Source of the DNA: a virus | Lineage: Duplodnaviria; Caudoviricetes | Strand: one strand, 5' to 3' | IMG/VR virus record: IMGVR_UViG_3300031953_000017 | Span: 1-53,788 of that record | Length of the DNA: 53,788 nucleotides | Part shown: piece after piece, positions 188-7,427 of the stretch | Numbering within the stretch: position 1 is the first letter of the stretch | Layout: each line of letters begins with the position of its first letter | The notes under the pieces: generated by a model | The model's database searches: none | Seen by the model: only the letters and a program-made list of their open reading frames with translations | What the model was told of the DNA's origin: nothing | Program-made: the position numbers and the translations under genes

Positions 188-806
188 TGTCGGCCTCCTC
201 TGCTTTTTGGATTGCTTCACCCTCCGCTATGCGCTGGCGACGATCAATCGCCTCAGCCCATTGCGTAGCCACTGCGGCAGTTTGGATCAGCTCAGTGCGC
301 AACTTCTCGGGGTCGCTCTCGGCCAACGCCTCAAAGACCTCTTCGAGCAGTATGTCGGCCCATGAGACCGTCCCCTCTTTTGCGGCCTTGTCTGTTGCCG
401 CTTTCGCCAGAAGTGACAGCCCAATCGCCCAGCTCCGCGATCCGCTAGTTGAGGAAATCGGGCCATTGTGGACAATGCGATTCAGGGGCGTGGATGTCCT
501 GCCAGTGCCGTCCGGGTGATTCTGCTGACCCCATTTCACATCCTGCCGAGCGCGTTCGTCAACTACGTCACCGACGGCTTTCCCGCCATGGGGCGAAACG
601 TGGAACTGGAACAATATCGACTTGGCGATGTTGTTTGCCCCGATAGACGATACGCCCCCTTCGTCGCGCCGATTCGCATGCCAAATCGCGGAACCAAGAC
701 TTTCTACCTGTTTTTTGTATAGATCCTGCTTGCTCGGCAGCTCGGGTGTCTTCGGTTCAAGCGTTCCATCGTTCGATGCGTGGCTGTCATTGTGGTTCAT
801 GTTCAT
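180..806 (-). CDS. MazG-like nucleotide pyrophosphohydrolase
   Basis: ERARQDVKWG...ILLEEVFEA...RTELIQTAAVA matches the all-alpha NTP-PPase EExxE...ExxQ pattern of phage MazG-like proteins. Confidence 0.75.
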   Translation of the reverse strand: MNMNHNDSHASNDGTLEPKTPELPSKQDLYKKQVESLGSAIWHANRRDEGGVSSIGANNIAKSILFQFHVSPHGGKAVGDVVDERARQDVKWGQQNHPDGTGRTSTPLNRIVHNGPISSTSGSRSWAIGLSLLAKAATDKAAKEGTVSWADILLEEVFEALAESDPEKLRTELIQTAAVATQWAEAIDRRQRIAEGEAIQKAEEADNA

Positions 807-2380
807 TTCGCTTCTCCTTTGGTCAGCGCCTTGCGCAAGCTCCTGTTGAGCTCGAGCCGGCGGGCTAGTTGTGAATCAATAATGTCTTCGTCGGTGGAAC
901 CTTCGGCAATAATCTCGTACTGGATCACCCCTTCGGTTCTCTTTTGCCCGCGGCGATCCAGCCGGCCGAGCAACTGCGTTTCGCTGGCGAGATCTCGGGA
1001 CTTGTTCAGCGACACCAACACTCCCGATGCGGCCTGCAGCCCGTCAATGCCGGTGCCGATAGCTTCGGTCACGCCAACAATCACGTCATATTTTCCGGCC
1101 TCAAAATCCTCAAGAGCCTGGTCGCGTGCCGCATCTGTCGCCGAGCTCGACCACTCGAACGCGCGAACCCCTTGAGCTTTCAGGCGGTTGACGGCCAGCT
1201 CGGCAAACTTTTTGGAGTTGGTGGCAGCCACGATAGGCTCGCCCACTTTCCCCATAATCCTGATCATCGCATCCAGCTTGGGGCTGTCGGCATCCGGCGC
1301 AAACACGACATCCCACAGTGGCATGCCACGCTCGTCGACCGCTTGCTGGGTCAGCCCGTCGTCGGCAATGATGTAATCCTTGCCCAGCTCCCACTCAGTT
1401 GACCCTTTCTTGGGTTTCCATGGGCGCGGGATGATCGACGGCATCGCGAGCGTCATCTGTGACAGGCGCAACGTGCGAACGACCGGCATCTTCACGACCA
1501 ACGCCTTGCGCTTGCGCTCGACCAGGGGCAACGCCTTCCACTCTTCGGTGGCGATGTCTAGGTATGCGAGATAGTCGCGTTGCAGCTGTGTGATCGCCTT
1601 TTTCTGGCCGGCCGTCAGGTCGACGGTTTCTCGAATCACAATCGGCTCGGGCAGGTGCGACAGGAAACCTTCGGGGTGAAACTCGCAGCATTCGGCGCGC
1701 TTGAAATGCTGAATCCAGCACGGCATCAGGCTGGCGAAGAGACCGGGCTCCAGCTCTCCGACAACCTTGCGCTTGCCGGGGGCGTGGTGGTCATACTCAG
1801 TTCGGCAGTAGGTGTCGATCCAGCGGTTCGCTGAGATGTCAGCGATGTCGCCGTGGCCGTCATGCTCCGGGTGCATGAAACGCGCAATTGTCCACGCGTT
1901 CTCAAACAGGTTCCGGTACATGGTTCCCGACATCGGGATCCGATGGCCGGTTGAGCGTGAAAACTTCATCAGCGCTTTGCCGCCAGACTTGTCGCGATTC
2001 CCCAGAAGGTGCGCCTCGTCGACGATGGTGAGATCTGGGCGAATGTGGTGTGGCTTCCAGCGCGTGAACGTCTGCGGGGTCATCAGGTAGTAACCCTCTT
2101 CACCCCACTCGAGATCCGACATTGCAGCCTTGCCCGGTTCGGTGCTGTCGATTCTTTGGATGCGTGCCCCTTCGTCGACTTCGCCAATAGTTCTACGCCA
2201 CACCTTTTTGTGCGTTCCTTGCGGGGCGATGATCAGCTTCGTCGGCAACCCGCTACGTCGCGCGGCCTCGGCTGCGATGACAGTTTTGCCGGCGCCAGTC
2301 TCGGCGACTACCGCGCCCGTCATGTTGTTGGCGAGAAGTGCCCGAATGTCAGCCTCTTGAAAATCGTATGGCTTGAGCAA
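803..2380 (-). CDS. Superfamily 2 DNA helicase
   Basis: Walker A AETGAGKT, DEAH box, motif III SGT, motif VI QLLGRLDRRGQ. Confidence 0.9.
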   Translation of the reverse strand: MLKPYDFQEADIRALLANNMTGAVVAETGAGKTVIAAEAARRSGLPTKLIIAPQGTHKKVWRRTIGEVDEGARIQRIDSTEPGKAAMSDLEWGEEGYYLMTPQTFTRWKPHHIRPDLTIVDEAHLLGNRDKSGGKALMKFSRSTGHRIPMSGTMYRNLFENAWTIARFMHPEHDGHGDIADISANRWIDTYCRTEYDHHAPGKRKVVGELEPGLFASLMPCWIQHFKRAECCEFHPEGFLSHLPEPIVIRETVDLTAGQKKAITQLQRDYLAYLDIATEEWKALPLVERKRKALVVKMPVVRTLRLSQMTLAMPSIIPRPWKPKKGSTEWELGKDYIIADDGLTQQAVDERGMPLWDVVFAPDADSPKLDAMIRIMGKVGEPIVAATNSKKFAELAVNRLKAQGVRAFEWSSSATDAARDQALEDFEAGKYDVIVGVTEAIGTGIDGLQAASGVLVSLNKSRDLASETQLLGRLDRRGQKRTEGVIQYEIIAEGSTDEDIIDSQLARRLELNRSLRKALTKGEAK

Positions 2381-2409
2381 TGCGCCTCCAATCTGTTGAG
2401 TGTCTTTTG

Positions 2410-2519
2410 TGGGACTGGCGGGATTTGAACCCGCGTACTCCGATACAGTGCGTGGCCTCTCCCGAGGACTAATCCGCTGTCGTCTGCCGTCCGGCGCTTG
2501 GCCTCTAAGCTACAGTCCC
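2410..2519 (-). ncRNA. tRNA-like RNA with expanded anticodon arm (110 nt)
   Basis: Minus strand: acceptor GGGACTG/CAGTCCC plus A, TA linker, D arm GCTT-AGAGGCC-AAGC, variable loop AGTAC, T arm GCGGG-TTCAAAT-CCCGC; no standard 7-nt anticodon loop. Confidence 0.8.
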
Positions 2520-2523
2520 AAGT

Positions 2524-2560
2524 GGCTGCCATCCAGAGCCGGGGAGGATAGATGGCAGCC
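2524..2560 (-). other. 10-bp stem-loop immediately upstream of the tRNA-like RNA
   Basis: GGCTGCCATC (2524-2533) / GATGGCAGCC (2551-2560) perfect inverted repeat, no U-tract. Confidence 0.6.
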
Positions 2561-2567
2561 GGTCTAG

Positions 2568-3719
2568 TTATGCTCGGGCGAGCTTACGCGCCACAAACAT
2601 GAGCGCCCCACCAGCGGGGAGCAATGCGAGCCACCAGGCTCCGATGGTTCCGCTGTCGCCAGTGTAGGGCAGCTTCTGAACCTGAGCCACAGGGGCAGCC
2701 GGAGTCACCGGCTTCTCTGGGGTGGCTGGAGTTTCTGGATCCGGGTCAGGCGTGTTATTCACGCAGATTGTTGGATCCTCGAACTCGTTGAGCCCTCCCG
2801 GTGCTGTGCCCTCTTCGCATTCGACGACAGGGGGCGTGTAGCATCCGAGTTCGATCGCTTCGGCACGCTCAAGAGTGCGGCTGCTGCTAGCTTCTGTCGA
2901 AACTGCTCCGTCGATCGTCGTCCACGTTCGGGTCGTGTACTGGTTGGTTGCCGAACAAACAGACTCTTCGTGATTCTCAATCACTCGACAGTCCAGTGTT
3001 GCCGGATCTGTCAGCTGAATCGTTGCCAACCCCAGATCGTGATTGATGTTGGTCACATTGTCGAACCACACAATCGGCAAGGTGATCGACTGGCCATAGG
3101 TCGGCGTGATGCCGAACTTTGTCAGAGCGTCCTCGACGGACAAGCCGGCGTTTTGTGCAGCCAAGATGTCTTCAGCCTTGATGCGCAAATCTCCAAGAAT
3201 GAAGCGAACACCGTCGGACGGGCCAGAGAATGCGAACGTGTTGAACGGGACATCACACGATGGCGGGGTCACGGTCAGGCTGGGAGCTGCGGGGATCTCG
3301 GGCTGGTAAGGGATCTCGCAGTTTTCGACAGCCACCTTGGCGCTCTTGGTGTAGGCCAGGTTCCCCAGCTTGTGACTGGCGAACTGCACCCCCACATTCA
3401 AGCGGTATTCACCCGCTTCGACATTCTGCGTCCACGTCTGCGTTACCGTGTCGCCGCGAACGGGCAATCCGATAAGGCCACTGTCGACAACGGCAACTCC
3501 GTTGATCTCCACAACTTCGATCGTTGCGTCGATGTTCTTGTAGTTGGCTCCCAGATCTCCAGTCACGTTCCATGTGATCGAAGCCTGCCCGGTCGAGGTG
3601 TCGCATTTTGCGATTCCTGAAACCGTTGGATGCGTTGCGCTCGCGGGAATCGCCGCAATAGCGGTGAGCCCTCCGGCGAGCATAAGGGTCACTAGGCCCT
3701 TGGCGATGATGTTCTTCAC
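2568..3719 (-). CDS. Secreted LPXTG cell-wall-anchored protein (sortase substrate)
   Basis: GTG start overlapping the upstream stop; signal peptide ending PASA; Pro/Thr-rich linker; LPYTG, hydrophobic helix, basic tail RKLARA. Confidence 0.85.
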   Translation of the reverse strand: MKNIIAKGLVTLMLAGGLTAIAAIPASATHPTVSGIAKCDTSTGQASITWNVTGDLGANYKNIDATIEVVEINGVAVVDSGLIGLPVRGDTVTQTWTQNVEAGEYRLNVGVQFASHKLGNLAYTKSAKVAVENCEIPYQPEIPAAPSLTVTPPSCDVPFNTFAFSGPSDGVRFILGDLRIKAEDILAAQNAGLSVEDALTKFGITPTYGQSITLPIVWFDNVTNINHDLGLATIQLTDPATLDCRVIENHEESVCSATNQYTTRTWTTIDGAVSTEASSSRTLERAEAIELGCYTPPVVECEEGTAPGGLNEFEDPTICVNNTPDPDPETPATPEKPVTPAAPVAQVQKLPYTGDSGTIGAWWLALLPAGGALMFVARKLARA

Positions 3720-4405
3720 TTGTTCTCCTGTTCGTTTGATTTTTCGATTTCTTGCTTGACCATCTCGGTGAGATGGTCTCCCCAAAGATTGACAACCTCT
3801 TCGAGTGTATTGCTGCTGAAATAGACCTCGCCCAGGCCGTCGCCATCGGGGTTCCGGCACGAGCATGTCGCCTCCCAGAACTCCTGATCCTTGCGAGAAA
3901 ACTCGTTCTTGCCGACACCCTCAATCTCGTGAATCTTGGACTGTCTTTCGCTGGCGATCTTGGTGGCCGACTTGAACGAGTGAACAAAGCACTCACGGCT
4001 AACGTGGTAAGAGAATGCCCCAGGGGTGTATTGGCAGGAGCAACCTTTATCCTTCTGTTCACTCGCCCAGGCTTCGGCGCGAACGCGGTTGCGCTCGGCA
4101 TAGTCTTCGTCCTCCGCGAGCATGTGGCCATGCAGGTCAGCCTCGGCCGATCCGTCCATCACGCTCCAGCTGGATTTCCAGCCGCACGAGCAACGGGCGA
4201 CAGTTCCGCGATGGCCACGCACGTCTTCGTCGGTGCAGGTGCCTTCGTGCTTCACCCACGCCTCTTCATTGTGCGCGGGGCAGTCGGTACACTGCGAGCA
4301 TGGCGGGGAGATGTGGCAGGAGCAATTGTGGAGCTCCTGATTCCCCGGCTTGCAGTCGGGGTGAGTCTCGGCCAGATGTTCGTATTCTTCGGTGAGCTTA
4401 GCCAT
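3716..4405 (-). CDS. Cys/His-rich hypothetical protein (several putative Zn-binding modules)
   Basis: CSCHISPPCSQC, CSCGW...HGH and CSC...DH motifs; stop/start overlaps with both neighbours. Confidence 0.7.
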   Translation of the reverse strand: MAKLTEEYEHLAETHPDCKPGNQELHNCSCHISPPCSQCTDCPAHNEEAWVKHEGTCTDEDVRGHRGTVARCSCGWKSSWSVMDGSAEADLHGHMLAEDEDYAERNRVRAEAWASEQKDKGCSCQYTPGAFSYHVSRECFVHSFKSATKIASERQSKIHEIEGVGKNEFSRKDQEFWEATCSCRNPDGDGLGEVYFSSNTLEEVVNLWGDHLTEMVKQEIEKSNEQENK

Positions 4406-4701
4406 CAGGAGACCCCCAGCGCTTTCGCGATCTCGGGGCGAAACTCTCCAGTGACAGGTAACCCCAGCGCGCGCCAAGCGGCGAACTCCATGGGGTGAAT
4501 ATTTTGGTCAGGGTCAATCAGGCTCATGGTTCCGATCGTGATCAGGTTCGCAATTCTCTGCTGCTCGGCGAGCGCCAATGTTGCGTAGACCTGAGCGGCG
4601 GCCAGCATGTCTGCTTTGCTATCAAACCAGTACGATCCGTCTGCCTTGTTGACCGAGCCCATCTCTGCGAGCTCTTCTGCTTTTTCCTTAAAATCCTTCA
4701 C
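4405..4701 (-). CDS. hypothetical protein
   Basis: 98-aa ORF translationally coupled to neighbours. Confidence 0.7.
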   Translation of the reverse strand: MKDFKEKAEELAEMGSVNKADGSYWFDSKADMLAAAQVYATLALAEQQRIANLITIGTMSLIDPDQNIHPMEFAAWRALGLPVTGEFRPEIAKALGVS

Positions 4702-4868
4702 GCTGACTCAACTCCAATCTCTATTGGTGGCGCCGGTGCTACGTCTTGTTGGCCTAACCCGCTTGCAATAAACAGGAGCGCCAGAATAGCGCCGATGGTT
4801 AGTGCTGCCAGCCCAATCATGATGTCGGCAACTTTGCCGATCGTTGGCTGCTTGAACCTGTGGATCAC
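4698..4868 (-). CDS. small membrane protein (56 aa, below ORF-track cutoff)
   Basis: GTG start; MIHRFKQPTIGKVADIMIGLAALTIGAILALLFIASGLG...; GTGA overlaps at both ends. Confidence 0.65.
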   Translation of the reverse strand: MIHRFKQPTIGKVADIMIGLAALTIGAILALLFIASGLGQQDVAPAPPIEIGVESA

Positions 4869-5107
4869 GAGTGATCCTCCAGCCGGTGCATCGCCTCGGC
4901 GCGCTCGACAGCCTGCCCGTAGGTCTCGCTGGAGCGTTCAGCGCCATAGGTGATCTCGCGCTTGTTTTTCAGTAGCATGATGCGAGTGGTCGAATGTTCT
5001 CGATCTCCGGGCATGCTGCGGGAGATCCGCACGACGACGCTGCCGTCAGGCATGATGTCGCCAACCTGCATGTTTCGGTACTGGGTTTCCGTGGTGATCT
5101 TAGCCAT
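4865..5107 (-). CDS. hypothetical protein
   Basis: Strong RBS AGGAGG upstream of ATG 5107 (MAKITTETQY). Confidence 0.7.
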   Translation of the reverse strand: MAKITTETQYRNMQVGDIMPDGSVVVRISRSMPGDREHSTTRIMLLKNKREITYGAERSSETYGQAVERAEAMHRLEDHS

Positions 5108-5175
5108 GTCTGGCCTCCTAAATCCTTGTGGTGTGTGTGTACGAATATACACTATTTATAGCCGGCGATCTACGT

Positions 5176-5541
5176 TTAGATCGAACCTTCTTCATGCATT
5201 TCTGAAATCTCGGACTTCAGCCGGCGGAGGCGTGCCTCCTCGTTCAGGGGGATTTCGCTACCTGTCAGCATCTGCTCGGAAACCTTGTCGGTGATCCGAA
5301 CCGGCTTGCCGTCGATATGTTCTAGCGTGTAAGAAATCTCGAGAATGGTGTCCTCACCCCGCGCCCACGAGATCTGAGCTCGAAGGCCGATCGCGCCCTC
5401 TTTGGTGGCGAACCTCTCCATGTGGGCGATCACTTCGGAGCGTTGCTCTTCGGTTGTTGTTGCTCGGCCCAAGGTCGTCCCGCTGACACTTCTGGTCGGC
5501 CCCAACGTTGCCTGTGGCTCGATGATCCCCATGTCAATCAC
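5176..5541 (-). CDS. hypothetical protein
   Basis: ORF in leftward operon; start is GTG 5541 or ATG 5532. Confidence 0.6.
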   Translation of the reverse strand: MIDMGIIEPQATLGPTRSVSGTTLGRATTTEEQRSEVIAHMERFATKEGAIGLRAQISWARGEDTILEISYTLEHIDGKPVRITDKVSEQMLTGSEIPLNEEARLRRLKSEISEMHEEGSI

Positions 5542-5660
5542 AGCCAACCCACAATGTGCAAAAACACTGTGATGATGCCAGCATAGATGGCCGCGCACTT
5601 CAGGATTATCACGCCCAACTGAATAGGTGTCGCCGGTTCGATCTCAGGCTTGTTGCTCAC
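5538..5660 (-). CDS. small membrane protein (40 aa)
   Basis: MSNKPEIEPATPIQLGVIILKCAAIYAGIITVFLHIVGWL fills the gap with GTGA overlaps. Confidence 0.6.
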   Translation of the reverse strand: MSNKPEIEPATPIQLGVIILKCAAIYAGIITVFLHIVGWL

Positions 5661-6256
5661 GACTGCGCCTCAATCCACTCGTTCAGCATGGACACCAACG
5701 ATTTCGGCGCCAGCTCGGAGACCTCTTCAACTTCGTAGGTCAACCATCCCGGCAGCTCGCCCTCGGGAGTCATCTCGGTCATCGGATCCTCGGTGATGCT
5801 GAACAGTCGGCTGCCGTCGTCGCTGACATCGAAGTTGACTGTACCCTCAAGAATTTTGGGGTAATCCTCGGCCGTGACCGTTGTCGGGAAACCGACAAAA
5901 CGCACGTTGATTTCAGTGTGTTCGTCGTTACCCCAGGCGAAAGCGTTGAACGCTTCAGGGTTGTTGATCGACGCAACATGCATGTCTTCGGTGCGCTTCA
6001 GCCAGCGGTAAACAGTTCCGCGATCGAGTACACCCAGCCCGTCGTTGGCGATGACGGCAACAGGCACGCCCAACTGTCGAGCGCGTCGAACCGCAATCGC
6101 AAGCTCAAGCTCTACGGCATCCAACTCTTCACGCAATGCCGCGCGGACACGCTTCTCAATGGACTCTTTGCCGTTCTTGTAGTTGTCGCGAGCTTCGGTG
6201 ATGTTGGTGACAGAAGCTTTCTGGATGCTGTTCATGTTGGCTCGGCGGGTACTCAC
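5657..6256 (-). CDS. hypothetical protein, possible N-terminal helix-turn-helix
   Basis: ARQLGVPVAVIA...LDRGTVYRWL resembles an HTH. Confidence 0.6.
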   Translation of the reverse strand: MSTRRANMNSIQKASVTNITEARDNYKNGKESIEKRVRAALREELDAVELELAIAVRRARQLGVPVAVIANDGLGVLDRGTVYRWLKRTEDMHVASINNPEAFNAFAWGNDEHTEINVRFVGFPTTVTAEDYPKILEGTVNFDVSDDGSRLFSITEDPMTEMTPEGELPGWLTYEVEEVSELAPKSLVSMLNEWIEAQS

Positions 6257-6888
6257 TTGTTGGCCTCAATCTGGATTGCTTCGGTTGCTGCGCGGCGTAG
6301 CTCGGTGTAAAGCCATGTCGCATAGCCTTCAGGGATTTCGATGTCGAACTCTTTGAGGAACGCGATGTGTGTCTGCGCTTGAGGCTGGATGCGACCCTCA
6401 AAGGTGAGGCAGTTGACCGTGTTCAGGTCGGCTGTGATGATTTTGAGCGATGCAGCAAACAGTTGGTTGTTCGAGTTGTCATAGTGGAATTCCTGCATAG
6501 CCTCCTCGTGGGTCGGCCCCACAATTTTCCACTCAAACTTCATAGGAAAATTGCTCAGACGATACTCGTCGTCATCGTCACTCAAACCTACAGACCAGGA
6601 CTCCGCCAACAAACCCGTTTCGGGGGCGCGTGTGACGATGACAAAAATGTTGTTTTCTTCGCTGCCATTACCAACCTCGCGAGTGATGCACTGACCGCTT
6701 CCACCTTCCTCTTTGTGCGCCTGTCGAAACGATCGTCTCCAGTTGGCCACCAAAGAGTGAGCTTGTGCGTAGTCAAGGATCGCATCGTCATGCGTGAAAT
6801 CAGAATCATTCCCGCGGGTGATGTAGTCCTCTTCCACCTCAAATTCGATGGTGTCGTCGTTGGGCAGGGTAATCGAAATCTCGGTCAT
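6253..6888 (-). CDS. acidic hypothetical protein
   Basis: 211-aa D/E-rich ORF, coupled. Confidence 0.7.
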   Translation of the reverse strand: MTEISITLPNDDTIEFEVEEDYITRGNDSDFTHDDAILDYAQAHSLVANWRRSFRQAHKEEGGSGQCITREVGNGSEENNIFVIVTRAPETGLLAESWSVGLSDDDDEYRLSNFPMKFEWKIVGPTHEEAMQEFHYDNSNNQLFAASLKIITADLNTVNCLTFEGRIQPQAQTHIAFLKEFDIEIPEGYATWLYTELRRAATEAIQIEANK

Positions 6889-7427
6889 TATTTTGACTCC
6901 TTCTCTGTGATGAAAATGTCTAAAGTTTCGGCAAGGATCTTGTCTGCTGAGTTTTCGCTACCGTGGGCTACAAACTCCAGAAGGTGCAACATGTCCACCA
7001 TGGCAACAATCACTGAGCTCTCCAGGTCTCCCGGCTCTTTTTCGGGAAACGTTACACCCACGTCTTGCGCAGCACGTCGCGCCGATCGCTGGCGTACAGC
7101 CGGCAGAGCCTCGTATTCTTCGTCATCGCTAGCCGGCATGACATTCTCAACATGCTCCAGCTGTGAGGATGACGCGTCATCGTTGCTGTCGCCCAGGAAC
7201 ACGGCCCCGCAGCTGCACAGTACAAAAAATGTTTCGGCGTGGGCGTTGTAACGCACGGGCGCATCCAAGTGCAATTCTGCCAACTCGGATACCGGCTCCA
7301 GGATTCGGAAATCTGTACCTTCGTTTGCTGCTGACAGCATCACCAGCTCGTCAATTGCCAGCGTCATCGTAAACGGTATCTGAACCGTCTTGTAGTCGTT
7401 CCCAATTTTCTGCTGTACCTGTGGCAT
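6888..7427 (-). CDS. hypothetical protein
   Basis: RBS AGGGG before ATG 7427 (MPQVQQK); CSCG motif. Confidence 0.65.
   Translation of the reverse strand: MPQVQQKIGNDYKTVQIPFTMTLAIDELVMLSAANEGTDFRILEPVSELAELHLDAPVRYNAHAETFFVLCSCGAVFLGDSNDDASSSQLEHVENVMPASDDEEYEALPAVRQRSARRAAQDVGVTFPEKEPGDLESSVIVAMVDMLHLLEFVAHGSENSADKILAETLDIFITEKESK

What the first reader, a model, noticed from the sequence alone, without database searches (positions are those of the whole stretch)
2410..2519. tRNA chassis whose anticodon arm is replaced by a long GNRA-capped stem
Seen: the minus strand gives a perfect 7-bp acceptor stem (GGGACTG/CAGTCCC) with discriminator A, U8-A9, a 4-bp D stem with GG in the loop, a 5-nt variable loop and a canonical T arm (GCGGG-TTCAAAT-CCCGC). 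The anticodon arm, however, is about 54 nt (CCGG...TCGG) instead of 17. It has internal pairing (ACAG/CTGT, GCG/CGC), ends in CCTC-GGGA-GAGG (a GNRA tetraloop), and has no U33-anticodon loop or encoded CCA. Established: group I introns are far longer than this ~37-nt excess, and tmRNA has a G3-U70 pair and no D stem. Inference: the intact elbow and acceptor argue against random decay. It could be a non-decoding tRNA mimic (decoy for anticodon nucleases or sensors of uncharged tRNA), a tRNA scaffold displaying an RNA module, or an RNase P/Z processing signal between the LPXTG and helicase cistrons.
Basis: partly seen in the sequence, partly recalled or inferred. Interest (0 to 1): 0.85.

Follow-up and report, generated by a model that had tools for sequence, protein, structure and literature searches.

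The report
Phage tRNA-shaped RNA without an anticodon
A phage carries a gene for an RNA that keeps the shape of a transfer RNA but has a long, conserved extra arm where the anticodon should be, and the same arm turns up in otherwise unrelated phages, so it is probably a working non-coding RNA rather than a broken tRNA.

Summary
Window 2410-2519 (minus strand) scores 49 bits on Rfam's tRNA model over its full length, with 47 nt where 9 are expected. ARAGORN finds nothing.

It is neither a decoding tRNA nor a decayed one. In 12 distinct phage or prophage elements of this kind the acceptor, D and T stems stay paired through compensatory changes. The tertiary pair 15-48 covaries in 12 of 12. The anticodon arm is short, oversized or replaced.

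The 55-nt arm recurs at 93% identity in a metagenomic relative (L024). It recurs at 87% in the cultured Microbacterium phages SadLad, RubyRalph and Fransoyer, where it is unannotated. None of 66 window ORFs has a tblastn match in SadLad. The arm is better conserved than the tRNA body. Only its tetraloop varies freely.

A sister allele (L003) has lost most of the arm and is the deeper of the two in the same sample. A very stable hairpin ends 3-4 nt before the 5' end.

Best reading: a self-contained tRNA-like RNA cut out of an operon transcript by tRNA-processing enzymes, carrying a host-directed arm. No RNA data exist and the function is inferred.

The parts
2410..2519 (-). Whole tRNA-like RNA gene, 110 nt, with no encoded CCA.
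   Evidence: Rfam tRNA 49 bits, full model, 47 nt in place of 9. Sequence read.
2513..2519 (-). Acceptor stem, 5' strand (GGGACUG).
   Evidence: Pairs with 2411-2417 in 7 of 7 positions. Positions 4-6 covary among relatives.
2496..2510 (-). D arm: stem GCUU/AAGC and a 7-nt loop with GG. A14 and G15 lie in this loop.
   Evidence: U8 and A14 are present in 12 of 12 elements, and G15 pairs with C48.
2440..2494 (-). Long arm of 55 nt in place of the 17-nt anticodon arm. It has an 8-bp base stem with a bulged A, a 9-nt unpaired stretch, a GCG/CGC helix, an internal loop and a distal hairpin.
   Evidence: RNAalifold on 5 sequences. It is 93% identical to L024 and 87% to SadLad. It is no more stable than shuffles.
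2456..2467 (-). Distal hairpin CCUC-GGGA-GAGG. The stem is invariant and the tetraloop varies among relatives.
   Evidence: Loops are GGGA, AAAA, AGCU, AGUU and AGUU in the 5 sequences.
2435..2439 (-). Variable loop AGUAC. Its last base, C48, is the partner of G15.
   Evidence: the 15-48 pair fits in 12 of 12 elements (G-C in 9, A-U in 3).
2418..2434 (-). T arm: GCGGG, loop UUCAAAU, CCCGC.
   Evidence: T-stem pairs 2 and 3 covary among relatives.
2410..2417 (-). Acceptor stem 3' strand (CAGUCCC, 2411-2417) and discriminator A (2410). The 3-70 pair is G-C here.
   Evidence: In 9 of the 12 elements the 3-70 pair is G.U instead.
2524..2560 (-). Very stable hairpin between the stop codon of the upstream gene and the tRNA-like RNA. 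It ends 4 nt before +1 and has no U run after it.
   Evidence: -23.8 kcal/mol, z -5.0, 0 of 200 shuffles fold as well. The counterpart in L003 keeps the stem through changes on both strands. The consensus terminator scan does not call it.
2568..3866 (-). Upstream gene, 432 aa, no family match. Its C-terminus is LPYTG, then a hydrophobic stretch, then an RK tail (looks like a sortase sorting signal).
   Evidence: The same ending is present in L003.
803..2380 (-). Downstream helicase gene. It starts with TTG at 2380-2378, and GGAGG lies at 2385-2389.
   Evidence: Pfam Helicase_C and ResIII. Sequence. 42% identical to the helicase of Clavibacter phage CMP1.

Best explanation
This is a self-contained phage gene for a non-decoding tRNA-like RNA. 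The tRNA body (acceptor stem, D arm, T arm and the L-shape tertiary contacts) is the chassis. The 55-nt arm in place of the anticodon arm is a sequence-specific module.

Proposed mechanism:
- The gene is transcribed as part of the leftward operon, between the LPXTG-type gene and the helicase gene.
- Host RNase P cuts at its 5' end. The upstream mRNA is left ending in a very stable hairpin.
- Host 3'-processing enzymes and the CCA-adding enzyme finish its 3' end.
- The released RNA of about 110 nt is stable because it looks like a tRNA.
- Its long arm then engages a host component, protein or RNA. It cannot read a codon.

Shown: selection on the tRNA fold, absence of an anticodon loop, conservation of the arm across phages that share no detectable protein, and the abutting hairpin.

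Inferred: transcription, cleavage by RNase P, CCA addition, stability, and any binding partner.
For: 1. tRNA fold under selection.
- Rfam tRNA scores are 49 bits (window), 42.9 (L003), 53.9 (L024), 54.8 (L010) and 48.6 (L008).
- In 12 distinct elements, acceptor pairs 4-6 and T pairs 2-3 change on both sides and stay paired.
- U8 and A14 are present in 12 of 12. The tertiary pair 15-48 is G-C in 9 and A-U in 3, so 12 of 12 fit.

2. No decoding arm in any of them.
- The arm is 47 nt in place of 9 (window, L024), 10 in place of 17 (L003) and 42 in place of 9 (L010). Tempo has a 6-nt loop. The 112-nt family has a replaced arm.
- ARAGORN's intron mode gives Thr(agt), Leu(aag), Gly(acc) and Val(cac) for four of them and nothing for L003. 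No consistent spliced tRNA exists.

3. The arm is the best-conserved part.
- Arm identity is 0.93 between window and L024, and 0.87 between window and SadLad. The 3' part of the chassis is 0.60 and 0.67 identical.
- L024's helicase is only 80% identical in protein.
- Changes cluster in the tetraloop.
- One pair of the base stem changes A-U to G-C, and one changes G.U to G-C.

4. It behaves as a self-contained unit.
- 0 of 66 window ORFs have a tblastn match (E<=1e-4) in the whole SadLad or Tempo records.
- The BLAST match to SadLad covers element positions 7-108 and not the flanks.
- The neighbours differ: LPXTG gene and helicase here, ssDNA-binding protein and RuvC-like resolvase there.
- No shared phage protein was detected, so a partner would have to be host-encoded.

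5. Processing context.
- Hairpins with z -5.0, -4.1, -5.7 and -7.0 (0 of 200 shuffles each) end 3-4 nt before +1 in the window, L003, SadLad and Tempo.
- That leaves no room for a promoter, and none is called.

6. A second lineage also keeps its own replaced arm. The 112-nt family has 1 variable column of 112, against 15 of 122 upstream and 34 of 126 downstream.
Against: - There are no RNA data. No listed sequencing run is RNA, so expression and processing are unshown.
- The sister allele L003 has lost about 41 nt of the arm. It is the deeper contig in the same sample, 54.8 against 14.6. The arm is therefore dispensable for the phage there.
- The arm is known from only 5 sequences, and 3 of them are nearly identical. 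Its structure rests on one double change and one G.U/G-C change.
- High arm identity could reflect recent transfer rather than selection.
- The arm is not thermodynamically better than shuffles (z +1.19, +0.06, +0.36). Nor is the whole element (z -0.86).
- Rfam's tRNA model missed the SadLad element at E<=0.1.
- Seven of the 12 elements were found with patterns that fixed most acceptor and T-arm bases, so tallies at those positions are biased.
- No partner was found. There is no antisense target in the window or in SadLad. There is no Rfam match for the arm. The arm was not found in 401 genomes of the order of the Arthrobacter genome G003, nor in 2 further actinobacterial genomes.
Confidence: 0.45

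Rival explanations
1. It is a pure punctuation signal. The tRNA-like fold exists only so that RNase P and the 3'-processing enzymes cut the operon transcript between two cistrons. The upstream mRNA then ends in a protective hairpin and the helicase mRNA gets a new 5' end. The released RNA and its arm have no function of their own.
For: - Only the parts that RNase P and the 3' enzymes need are kept in all 12 elements: the acceptor-T stack and the D/T elbow. The anticodon arm is free to vary.
- A very stable hairpin ends 3-4 nt before +1 in four lineages.
- The next gene's ribosome-binding site follows about 20 nt after the 3' end.
- The L003 allele without the arm is the deeper of the two in the same sample.
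Against: - The arm is more conserved than the chassis between phages that share no detectable protein. A spacer without function should not behave so.
- The unit shared with SadLad is the RNA gene alone, without its flanks.
- The 112-nt family also keeps its arm nearly unchanged.
Confidence: 0.22
2. It is an acceptor-end mimic. The RNA works through its acceptor stem. In most relatives a G3.U70 pair with A73 would let alanyl-tRNA synthetase charge it without an anticodon, as it charges tmRNA (recalled). The RNA would then either occupy or divert enzymes that act on tRNA 3' ends, or serve as a decoy for host toxins that modify or cut tRNA acceptor ends.
For: - The 3-70 pair is G.U in 9 of 12 distinct elements, while neighbouring pairs change between Watson-Crick types. 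Eleven of 12 have A73.
- Position 70 was left free (C or T) in the search patterns.
- Among the five elements not found by pattern, 4 have G.U.
- SadLad encodes CCA directly after A73.
- That G3.U70 is the main alanine identity element is established knowledge, recalled and not tested here.
Against: - The window's own copy has G3-C70, as do the 112-nt family and L033. Alanine charging therefore cannot be the function of this copy.
- No aminoacylation data exist.
- This reading does not explain why the arm is conserved.
- The chassis sequences are related to each other, so G.U may partly be shared ancestry.
Confidence: 0.15
3. It is a decaying tRNA pseudogene, hit by an insertion in the anticodon loop and kept by chance.
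For: - ARAGORN does not call it.
- There is no anticodon loop.
- Folding energy is no better than shuffles.
- One relative carries a deletion in the arm.
Against: - All three remaining stems are perfect here.
- They stay paired through compensatory changes in 12 elements, and the 15-48 tertiary pair covaries.
- Decay would hit all arms, not only the anticodon arm.
- The insert is conserved across phages that share no detectable protein.
Confidence: 0.05
4. It is a real tRNA with a short intron that is spliced out to give a decoding tRNA.
For: - ARAGORN's intron mode can force a tRNA-Thr(agt) with a 17-nt intron and a long variable arm.
- The same search pattern picks up archaeal tRNAs with an insert of similar length, which I read as ordinary introns without checking.
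Against: - The forced solutions give a different isotype for each relative and none for L003.
- No U33 or 7-nt loop can be rebuilt from the ends of the arm.
- There is no group I intron match, and the excess of 38 nt is far too short for one.
- The phage looks bacterial: a sortase-type signal and actinophage-like helicase matches. Bacteria have no known short-intron splicing (recalled).
- No RNA ligase or splicing endonuclease appeared in the 38 of 66 window ORFs scanned.
Confidence: 0.03
5. It is a DNA-level signal. The cloverleaf would act as single-stranded DNA, for example as a priming or origin signal next to replication genes, or as a remnant of an attachment site.
For: The elements lie in or beside replication and recombination modules: a helicase here, an ssDNA-binding protein and RuvC in SadLad, and a DnaB-like helicase in L010.
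Against: - The conserved features are the ones that make the RNA L-shape and are read by tRNA enzymes: the T-loop consensus, U8-A14 and the 15-48 pair.
- A full tRNA with both halves is not what an attachment site keeps.
- No integrase was seen in the ORFs scanned.
Confidence: 0.03

Closest known systems
tmRNA tRNA-like domain
   Same: It is a tRNA-shaped RNA that lacks an anticodon, and a long helix leaves the body where the anticodon arm would be. Most relatives of this element carry G3.U70 with A73, as tmRNA does (the tmRNA features are recalled).
   Different: It has a full D stem, no tag reading frame and no pseudoknots. ARAGORN finds no tmRNA and Rfam's tmRNA families do not match. The window copy has G3-C70. 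At 110 nt it is far shorter than a tmRNA (recalled).
YrlA / bacterial Y RNAs (Chen et al. 2014, PMC4201824; abstract and passages read)
   Same: Both are non-coding RNAs with tRNA-like D and T arms and an acceptor-like stem. They occur in bacteria and phages, including actinobacteria. M. smegmatis YrlA is cut by RNase P and receives CCA. An 8-nt stretch of the arm here resembles the YrlA motif GNCGAAN0-1G but departs from it at one position, and at two in Fransoyer.
   Different: YrlA genes lie next to a Ro60/Rsr gene, and no TROVE protein is encoded in this phage. No Rfam Y RNA family matches. In YrlA the RNA ends lie in the protein-binding stem, whereas here they lie in the acceptor stem (the YrlA topology is partly recalled).
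mascRNA / MALAT1 3'-end system
   Same: In both, a tRNA-like fold without a working anticodon sits inside a longer transcript, directly after a stabilising structure. RNase P cleavage there would make the 3' end of the upstream RNA and release a small tRNA-like RNA (the MALAT1 mechanism is recalled; only the listing and abstract of PMC8457004 were seen).
   Different: That system is eukaryotic and nuclear. The stabiliser there is a triple helix, not a hairpin. Rfam's mascRNA model gives 16.4 bits against a gathering score of 42.5, on the T arm only. Cleavage here is inferred.
Phage-encoded tRNAs of actinobacteriophages
   Same: It is a tRNA-type gene in a phage of the actinophage kind. Tempo's syntenic counterpart of the SadLad element is annotated tRNA-OTHER, and Kelcole's is annotated tRNA-Tyr. 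Many Microbacterium phages carry a single tRNA-Ala (PMC7302621, passages read).
   Different: It cannot decode because it has no anticodon loop. It is unannotated in SadLad, RubyRalph and Fransoyer. The arm is conserved as a sequence module.
Engineered tRNA scaffolds for RNA expression, and herpesvirus tRNA-miRNA chimeras (both recalled, no call)
   Same: The design principle is the same: a tRNA body gives processing and stability to a foreign RNA part. In the engineered scaffold the part replaces the anticodon arm, as here.
   Different: The first is man-made and the second is eukaryotic. In the herpesvirus case the cargo lies downstream of the tRNA-like part, not inside it. No natural bacterial or phage example was found in the literature searches.

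Membership tests
tRNA (Rfam RF00005, canonical decoding tRNA) | Score at or above the family's gathering threshold over the full model. | tested here: met
   49 bits against 29, model positions 1-71 of 71.
tRNA (Rfam RF00005, canonical decoding tRNA) | 7-bp acceptor stem, D and T arms with consensus loops, U8-A14 and the 15-48 tertiary pair. | tested here: met
   G15-C48 here, and the pair fits in 12 of 12 relatives.
tRNA (Rfam RF00005, canonical decoding tRNA) | 5-bp anticodon stem with a 7-nt loop, U33 and an anticodon. | tested here: not met
   47 nt in place of 9. ARAGORN finds nothing with default settings. Intron mode gives inconsistent isotypes.
tmRNA | Tag-peptide reading frame and pseudoknots between the two halves of the tRNA-like domain. 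| tested here: not met
   ARAGORN finds no tmRNA. Rfam shows only a 13-bit partial match to the permuted tmRNA family.
tmRNA | G3.U70 in the acceptor stem. | tested here: not met
   The window has G3-C70. Nine of the 12 elements have G.U.
YrlA / Y RNA | Encoded beside a Ro60/Rsr (TROVE) gene. | tested here: not met
   PF05731 gives 0 matches in the phage record, and the control genomes respond. The host genome is unknown.
YrlA / Y RNA | Match to an Rfam Y RNA-type family, and the conserved motif of the Ro-binding strand. | tested here: not met
   No such family appears at the gathering score or at E<=10. The motif is matched only with one departure, or two in Fransoyer.
Intron-containing tRNA (group I or bulge-helix-bulge type) | An intron whose removal rebuilds a canonical anticodon stem-loop of the same isotype in relatives. 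| tested here: not met
   ARAGORN -i gives Thr, Leu, Gly and Val for four elements and nothing for L003. No intron family appears in Rfam.
RNase P-processed tRNA-like element inside a longer transcript (mascRNA-like) | Cleavage by RNase P at +1 that releases a small RNA and makes the upstream 3' end. | not testable with these tools
   Only the context could be examined: a hairpin with z -5.0 ends 4 nt before +1. No RNA runs are listed.
RNase P-processed tRNA-like element inside a longer transcript (mascRNA-like) | Match to the Rfam mascRNA-menRNA model. | tested here: not met
   16.4 bits against 42.5.

The most novel reading that the evidence does not exclude
Actinobacteriophages may carry a class of exchangeable 'tRNA-chassis' RNA genes. 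The tRNA body would recruit the host's tRNA-processing enzymes, and in most members the alanine-charging machinery as well. The anticodon arm would be a swappable cargo slot. The 55-nt arm shared by this phage and the SadLad group would then be one such cargo, aimed at a conserved host factor. That factor could be a defence or RNA-surveillance component, which would make this a natural RNA-based counter-defence carried on a tRNA scaffold.
Probability: 0.25. Interest if true: 0.85.

Novelty: new variant of a known kind. Interest (0 to 1): 0.68.

Why it matters
tRNA mimicry by non-coding RNAs is known from tmRNA, Y RNAs, mascRNA and plant-virus ends. Six literature searches found no description of a phage tRNA body whose anticodon arm is replaced by a conserved module.

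Here that module is shared between phages in which no common protein was detected. This points to an RNA gene that moves on its own and acts on the host.

Three cultured phages with a laboratory host carry it unannotated, so the question can be tested directly at the bench.

It also matters for annotation. Standard tRNA finders miss these genes or give them arbitrary isotypes. The identical sequence is labelled tRNA-OTHER in Tempo and tRNA-Tyr in Kelcole, and at least three other records that match over the same 3' stretch have no feature there.

If the G3.U70 forms are charged with alanine, they would be a second natural class of anticodon-less alanine acceptors besides tmRNA.

Tried and rejected
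**Searches that found nothing**
- Megablast of window 1500-3500 against the phage collection: no match.
- Clavibacter phage CMP1, the nearest named phage by helicase (42%), has no tRNA-like hit upstream of its helicase.
- Arm-specific patterns found nothing in viral contigs. The window's own record may be left out there.
- A long-gap pattern on the SadLad chassis found nothing in viral contigs.
- The arm pattern with up to 3 mismatches found nothing in 3 actinobacterial genomes, nor in 401 genomes of the order of G003. These are a sample, so the arm is 'not found in those searched', not absent.
- Rfam at E<=10 on 2380-2600 gave only tRNA plus weak chance-level rows.
- The complement of the unpaired arm stretch, with up to 3 mismatches, matched only the element itself in the window and in SadLad. 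Tempo had one 2-mismatch hit.
- The consensus scan for promoters and terminators gave no promoter, and one terminator-like site inside the upstream gene.

**Protein scans**
- 38 of 66 candidate window ORFs were scanned with Pfam and/or PHROGs.
- They showed a helicase, a primase, exonucleases, an Erf-like protein, a methyltransferase and a GTP-binding domain.
- No tRNA enzyme, RNA ligase, reverse transcriptase or integrase appeared. The other 28 ORFs, mostly in the structural module, were not scanned.
- Neighbours of the Arthrobacter and Timonella elements gave a DnaB-like helicase, an HNH endonuclease, a minor tail protein, and one weak nucleotidyltransferase-family PHROG hit two genes away. 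Pfam did not confirm that last hit.

**Expression and reads**
- No RNA holder is listed among the sequencing runs.
- The runs that were laid are contigs only.

**Literature**
- Searches found no description of this element.
- Only listings and abstracts were seen, except PMC7302621 (passages on tRNA) and PMC4201824 (abstract and passages).
- Supplementary tables of both papers were not seen. They may list phage Y RNAs or tRNAs that bear on this finding.

- Not used: the count of structure pairs, build_rna_model, structure prediction and complex prediction.
- With five arm sequences, three of them nearly identical, further statistics would add little.
Full report
**Observation**

The minus strand of window 2410-2519 reads as a tRNA in every part but one.
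- It has a perfect 7-bp acceptor stem with discriminator A, and U8 and A9.
- It has a 4-bp D stem with GG in a 7-nt loop, a 5-nt variable loop, and a T arm with the consensus loop.
- Where the 17-nt anticodon arm should be there are 55 nt (window 2440-2494).

Rfam's tRNA model matches over its full length at 49 bits (gathering score 29), with 47 nt in place of 9. ARAGORN finds no tRNA or tmRNA anywhere in the window. Folding energy alone is not remarkable. The cloverleaf-constrained fold is -39.0 kcal/mol against -39.5 unconstrained. The whole element has z -0.86 against shuffles. The case therefore rests on comparison, not on thermodynamics.

**Setting**

The window is a complete virus record of 53,788 bp with direct terminal repeats. 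The element lies in a leftward operon.
- Upstream is a 432-aa ORF that ends in LPYTG, a hydrophobic stretch and an RK tail.
- Downstream is a helicase gene.
- The nearest named relative of that helicase is Clavibacter phage CMP1 at 42%, followed by Microbacterium and Arthrobacter phages.

The phage therefore looks like an actinobacteriophage. A further 38 of 66 candidate ORFs scanned show a replication and recombination module and nothing that acts on tRNA. The tRNA-like gene is the only Rfam match in the window.

**Syntenic relatives**

Three relatives have the same helicase with the element just upstream.
- L003 (helicase 94% identical) has a 66-nt tRNA-like RNA scoring 42.9 bits, with 10 nt in place of the 17-nt arm. 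Its short hairpin keeps the outer letters of the long arm and looks like an internal deletion of about 41 nt.
- L024 (helicase 80% identical) has a 111-nt element scoring 53.9 bits. It carries the same 47-nt insert apart from one substitution and a tetraloop changed from GGGA to AAAA.
- The tRNA body differs among the three through paired changes. The acceptor strand is GGGACUG, GGGACCG or GGGAACG with matching 3' strands. The T stem is GCGGG, GCAGG or GGAGG with matching partners. The D stem is GCUU, GUUC or GCUC with matching partners.
- CMP1 has no tRNA-like hit at this place.
- Contigs of the source-like runs show the window allele and the L003-type allele side by side. The L003 type is the deeper, at 54.8 against 14.6. 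These figures are contig depths, not copy numbers.

**The same arm in unrelated phages**

BLAST of the region against 50,697 phage records finds three cultured Microbacterium paraoxydans phages: SadLad, RubyRalph and Fransoyer.
- They match at about 81% over element positions 7-108, and nothing is annotated there.
- In these phages the element lies between the ssDNA-binding protein gene and a small ORF followed by a RuvC-like resolvase gene.
- Their chassis is different (acceptor GGGCGGG/CCCGUCC, with CCA encoded after A73). Their arm is the same, with tetraloops AGCU or AGUU.
- Arm identity is 0.93 (window to L024) and 0.87 (window to SadLad). The 3' chassis part is 0.60 and 0.67 identical.
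- None of 66 window ORFs has a tblastn match at E<=1e-4 in the whole SadLad or Tempo records.

The RNA gene is thus the only detectable thing these phages share, and the similarity stops at its borders.

Gillianvirus phages (Tempo, Kelcole and others) carry the SadLad chassis at the syntenic place, but with a 5-bp stem and a 6-nt loop. The annotation there varies between tRNA-OTHER, tRNA-Tyr and nothing.

**A wider set of anticodon-less tRNA-like genes**

Pattern scans on the acceptor and T-arm sequences found more elements.
- An 81-nt element in a complete 53.9-kb phage (L008), with relatives in an Arthrobacter genome and a Specibacter MAG.
- A 105-nt element beside tRNA-Gln in a Timonella prophage-like region (L010, L039).
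- An 88-nt element in a Cryomorphaceae MAG.
- A 112-nt element with an AT-rich replaced arm, in 12 contigs of one phage lineage.
- The Arthrobacter phage Raphaella 'tRNA-Gly', which has an oversized loop.

The six archaeal hits have inserts of similar length. I took them to be ordinary intron-bearing tRNAs without checking, and set them aside.

Over 12 distinct bacterial or phage elements:
- Acceptor pairs 4-6 and T pairs 2-3 vary and stay paired, with one C-A mismatch in L037.
- U8 and A14 are present in 12 of 12.
- The 15-48 tertiary pair is G-C in 9 and A-U in 3.

Seven of the 12 were found with patterns that fixed most acceptor and T-arm letters, so only the free positions count for them. 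The five found by synteny or BLAST (window, L024, SadLad, Tempo, Raphaella) show the same picture. In the 112-nt family the element has 1 variable column of 112, against 15 of 122 and 34 of 126 in the flanks.

**Structure of the arm**

RNAalifold on the five long-arm sequences gives 33 pairs, 7 of them with compensatory changes, mostly in the chassis. Within the arm it predicts:
- an 8-bp base stem with a bulged A, in which one pair changes A-U to G-C and one changes G.U to G-C;
- a 9-nt unpaired stretch;
- a GCG/CGC helix;
- an internal loop;
- the CCUC/GAGG hairpin with a free tetraloop.

The arm alone folds no better than shuffles (z +1.19, +0.06, +0.36). Long conserved unpaired stretches suggest recognition by sequence, not a mere stable stem. 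With effectively three independent sequences this structure is provisional.

**Processing context**

A hairpin of -23.8 kcal/mol (z -5.0, 0 of 200 shuffles) ends 4 nt before +1. The counterparts in L003, SadLad and Tempo have z -4.1, -5.7 and -7.0 and end 3-4 nt before +1. Between the window and L003 the stem is kept through changes on both strands. No U run follows the hairpin and no promoter is called. The downstream gene's GGAGG lies about 20 nt after the discriminator.

This layout fits co-transcription followed by RNase P cleavage. The cut would leave the upstream mRNA with a protected 3' end. That is inference; no RNA data are available.

**The G3.U70 question**

Nine of the 12 elements have G.U at 3-70, and 11 of 12 have A73, while neighbouring pairs switch between Watson-Crick types. 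From established knowledge (recalled), G3.U70 is the main identity element for alanyl-tRNA synthetase, which does not need the anticodon. Most members may therefore be charged with alanine. The window copy, the 112-nt family and L033 have G-C. This cannot be the function of the copy under study, and I keep it as a rival and as part of the novel case.

**What was excluded**
- Intron. ARAGORN's intron mode yields Thr(agt), Leu(aag), Gly(acc) and Val(cac) for four elements and nothing for L003. No intron family matches.
- tmRNA. There is no tag frame, and a D stem is present.
- Y RNA. No TROVE gene is in the phage and no Rfam match exists. The resemblance to the YrlA motif is imperfect.
- Antisense regulator of the phage's own genes. 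No target was found.
- Near-exact copy of a host RNA. None was found in 404 actinobacterial genomes searched.

**Verdict**

The finding is real. It is best read as a self-contained, horizontally shared phage gene for a non-decoding tRNA-like RNA whose long arm is a conserved module. The steps from DNA to function (excision by tRNA enzymes, stability, a host partner) are inferred.

The main rival is pure mRNA punctuation. It is supported by the abutting hairpin and by the natural allele that has lost the arm.

I found no description of such an element in six literature searches. Three cultured phages make it testable.

Noticed in passing
L011-L022 (for example L011 7766-7877, minus strand): An identical 112-nt tRNA-like element sits in 12 contigs of one phage lineage (GC about 49%, contigs of 14-277 kb). 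Its anticodon arm is replaced by an AT-rich stretch of about 54 nt. That stretch contains a TTGACA and a TAAATT 16 nt apart, which looks like a promoter. The element is far more conserved than its flanks.
   Followed up: partly
L008 385-465 (-), L037 5009-5089 (-), L038 618-700 (-): A second actinobacterial family of tRNA-like elements, 81-83 nt long, has G3.U70 and A73. A short hairpin on a near-palindromic GUGCGCAC-type core replaces the anticodon arm. One copy is in a complete 53.9-kb phage. Another is in Arthrobacter sp. ISL-95 with a similar downstream flank, so it is probably a prophage.
   Followed up: partly
L010 2009-2113 (-), equal to L039 2042-2146 (-) in Timonella senegalensis JC301: A 105-nt tRNA-like element with a 42-nt insert lies directly after a normal tRNA-Gln. 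It is downstream of a DnaB-like helicase gene and upstream of an HNH endonuclease gene. By eye, a hairpin appears to end 2 nt before its 5' end; this was not folded.
   Followed up: partly
L043 1458-1530 (Tempo), L044 258-333 (Kelcole), and the records: The same 73-nt gene, with a 6-nt 'anticodon' loop, is labelled tRNA-OTHER (Ile|Tyr) in Tempo and tRNA-Tyr(ata) in Kelcole. Marcie and Fregley also show tRNA-OTHER there. OneinaGillian, RobinRose and Fizzles, which match over the same 3' stretch, have no feature annotated there.
   Followed up: yes
L042 1503-1580 (Arthrobacter phage Raphaella): The annotated tRNA-Gly(ccc) has an oversized anticodon loop (11 nt where Rfam expects 6), a G3.U70 pair and U73. 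It may be another non-decoding member.
   Followed up: no
window 2399-2541, from contigs of runs X1-X4: Two alleles of this locus coexist in the same brine-metagenome runs. One is the window form. The other has 141 nt replaced by 99 nt and matches the L003 form. The second is the deeper contig, at 54.8 against 14.6.
   Followed up: yes
window 2568-2717 (-) and L003 3703-3855: The 432-aa protein with no family match ends in LPYTG, a hydrophobic stretch and an RK-rich tail. This is a sortase-type cell-wall sorting signal in a phage protein. The last 35 residues are conserved, but tblastn matched only a 39-residue stretch of the whole protein in the held pieces of L003's contig.
   Followed up: partly
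window 2378-2380 against L003 4001-4003: The helicase gene starts with TTG in the window and with ATG in L003, at the same codon.
   Followed up: no
L020 7324-7413 and the matching places in L011, L015, L018, L019 and L022: ARAGORN calls a 90-nt 'tRNA-Ile(tat)' with a 3-bp D stem and a long, poorly paired extra arm, next to normal tRNA-Arg and tRNA-Ser genes. It is another odd tRNA in the lineage that carries the 112-nt element.
   Followed up: no
L033 (Cryomorphaceae MAG) 373-7279: An 8-kb stretch holds six ARAGORN tRNA calls on one strand. They include a 91-nt 'tRNA-Asp(gtc)' (the 88-nt element found here), an Asp(atc) and two Arg(tct). It may be a phage-derived tRNA array with non-canonical members.
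   Followed up: no
window 5627-6310 (+) and 6367-7251 (+): These two plus-strand ORFs lie inside the otherwise leftward early region. They have protein-level matches in the L003 contig (45% and 36%), so they are probably real genes transcribed against their neighbours.
   Followed up: no
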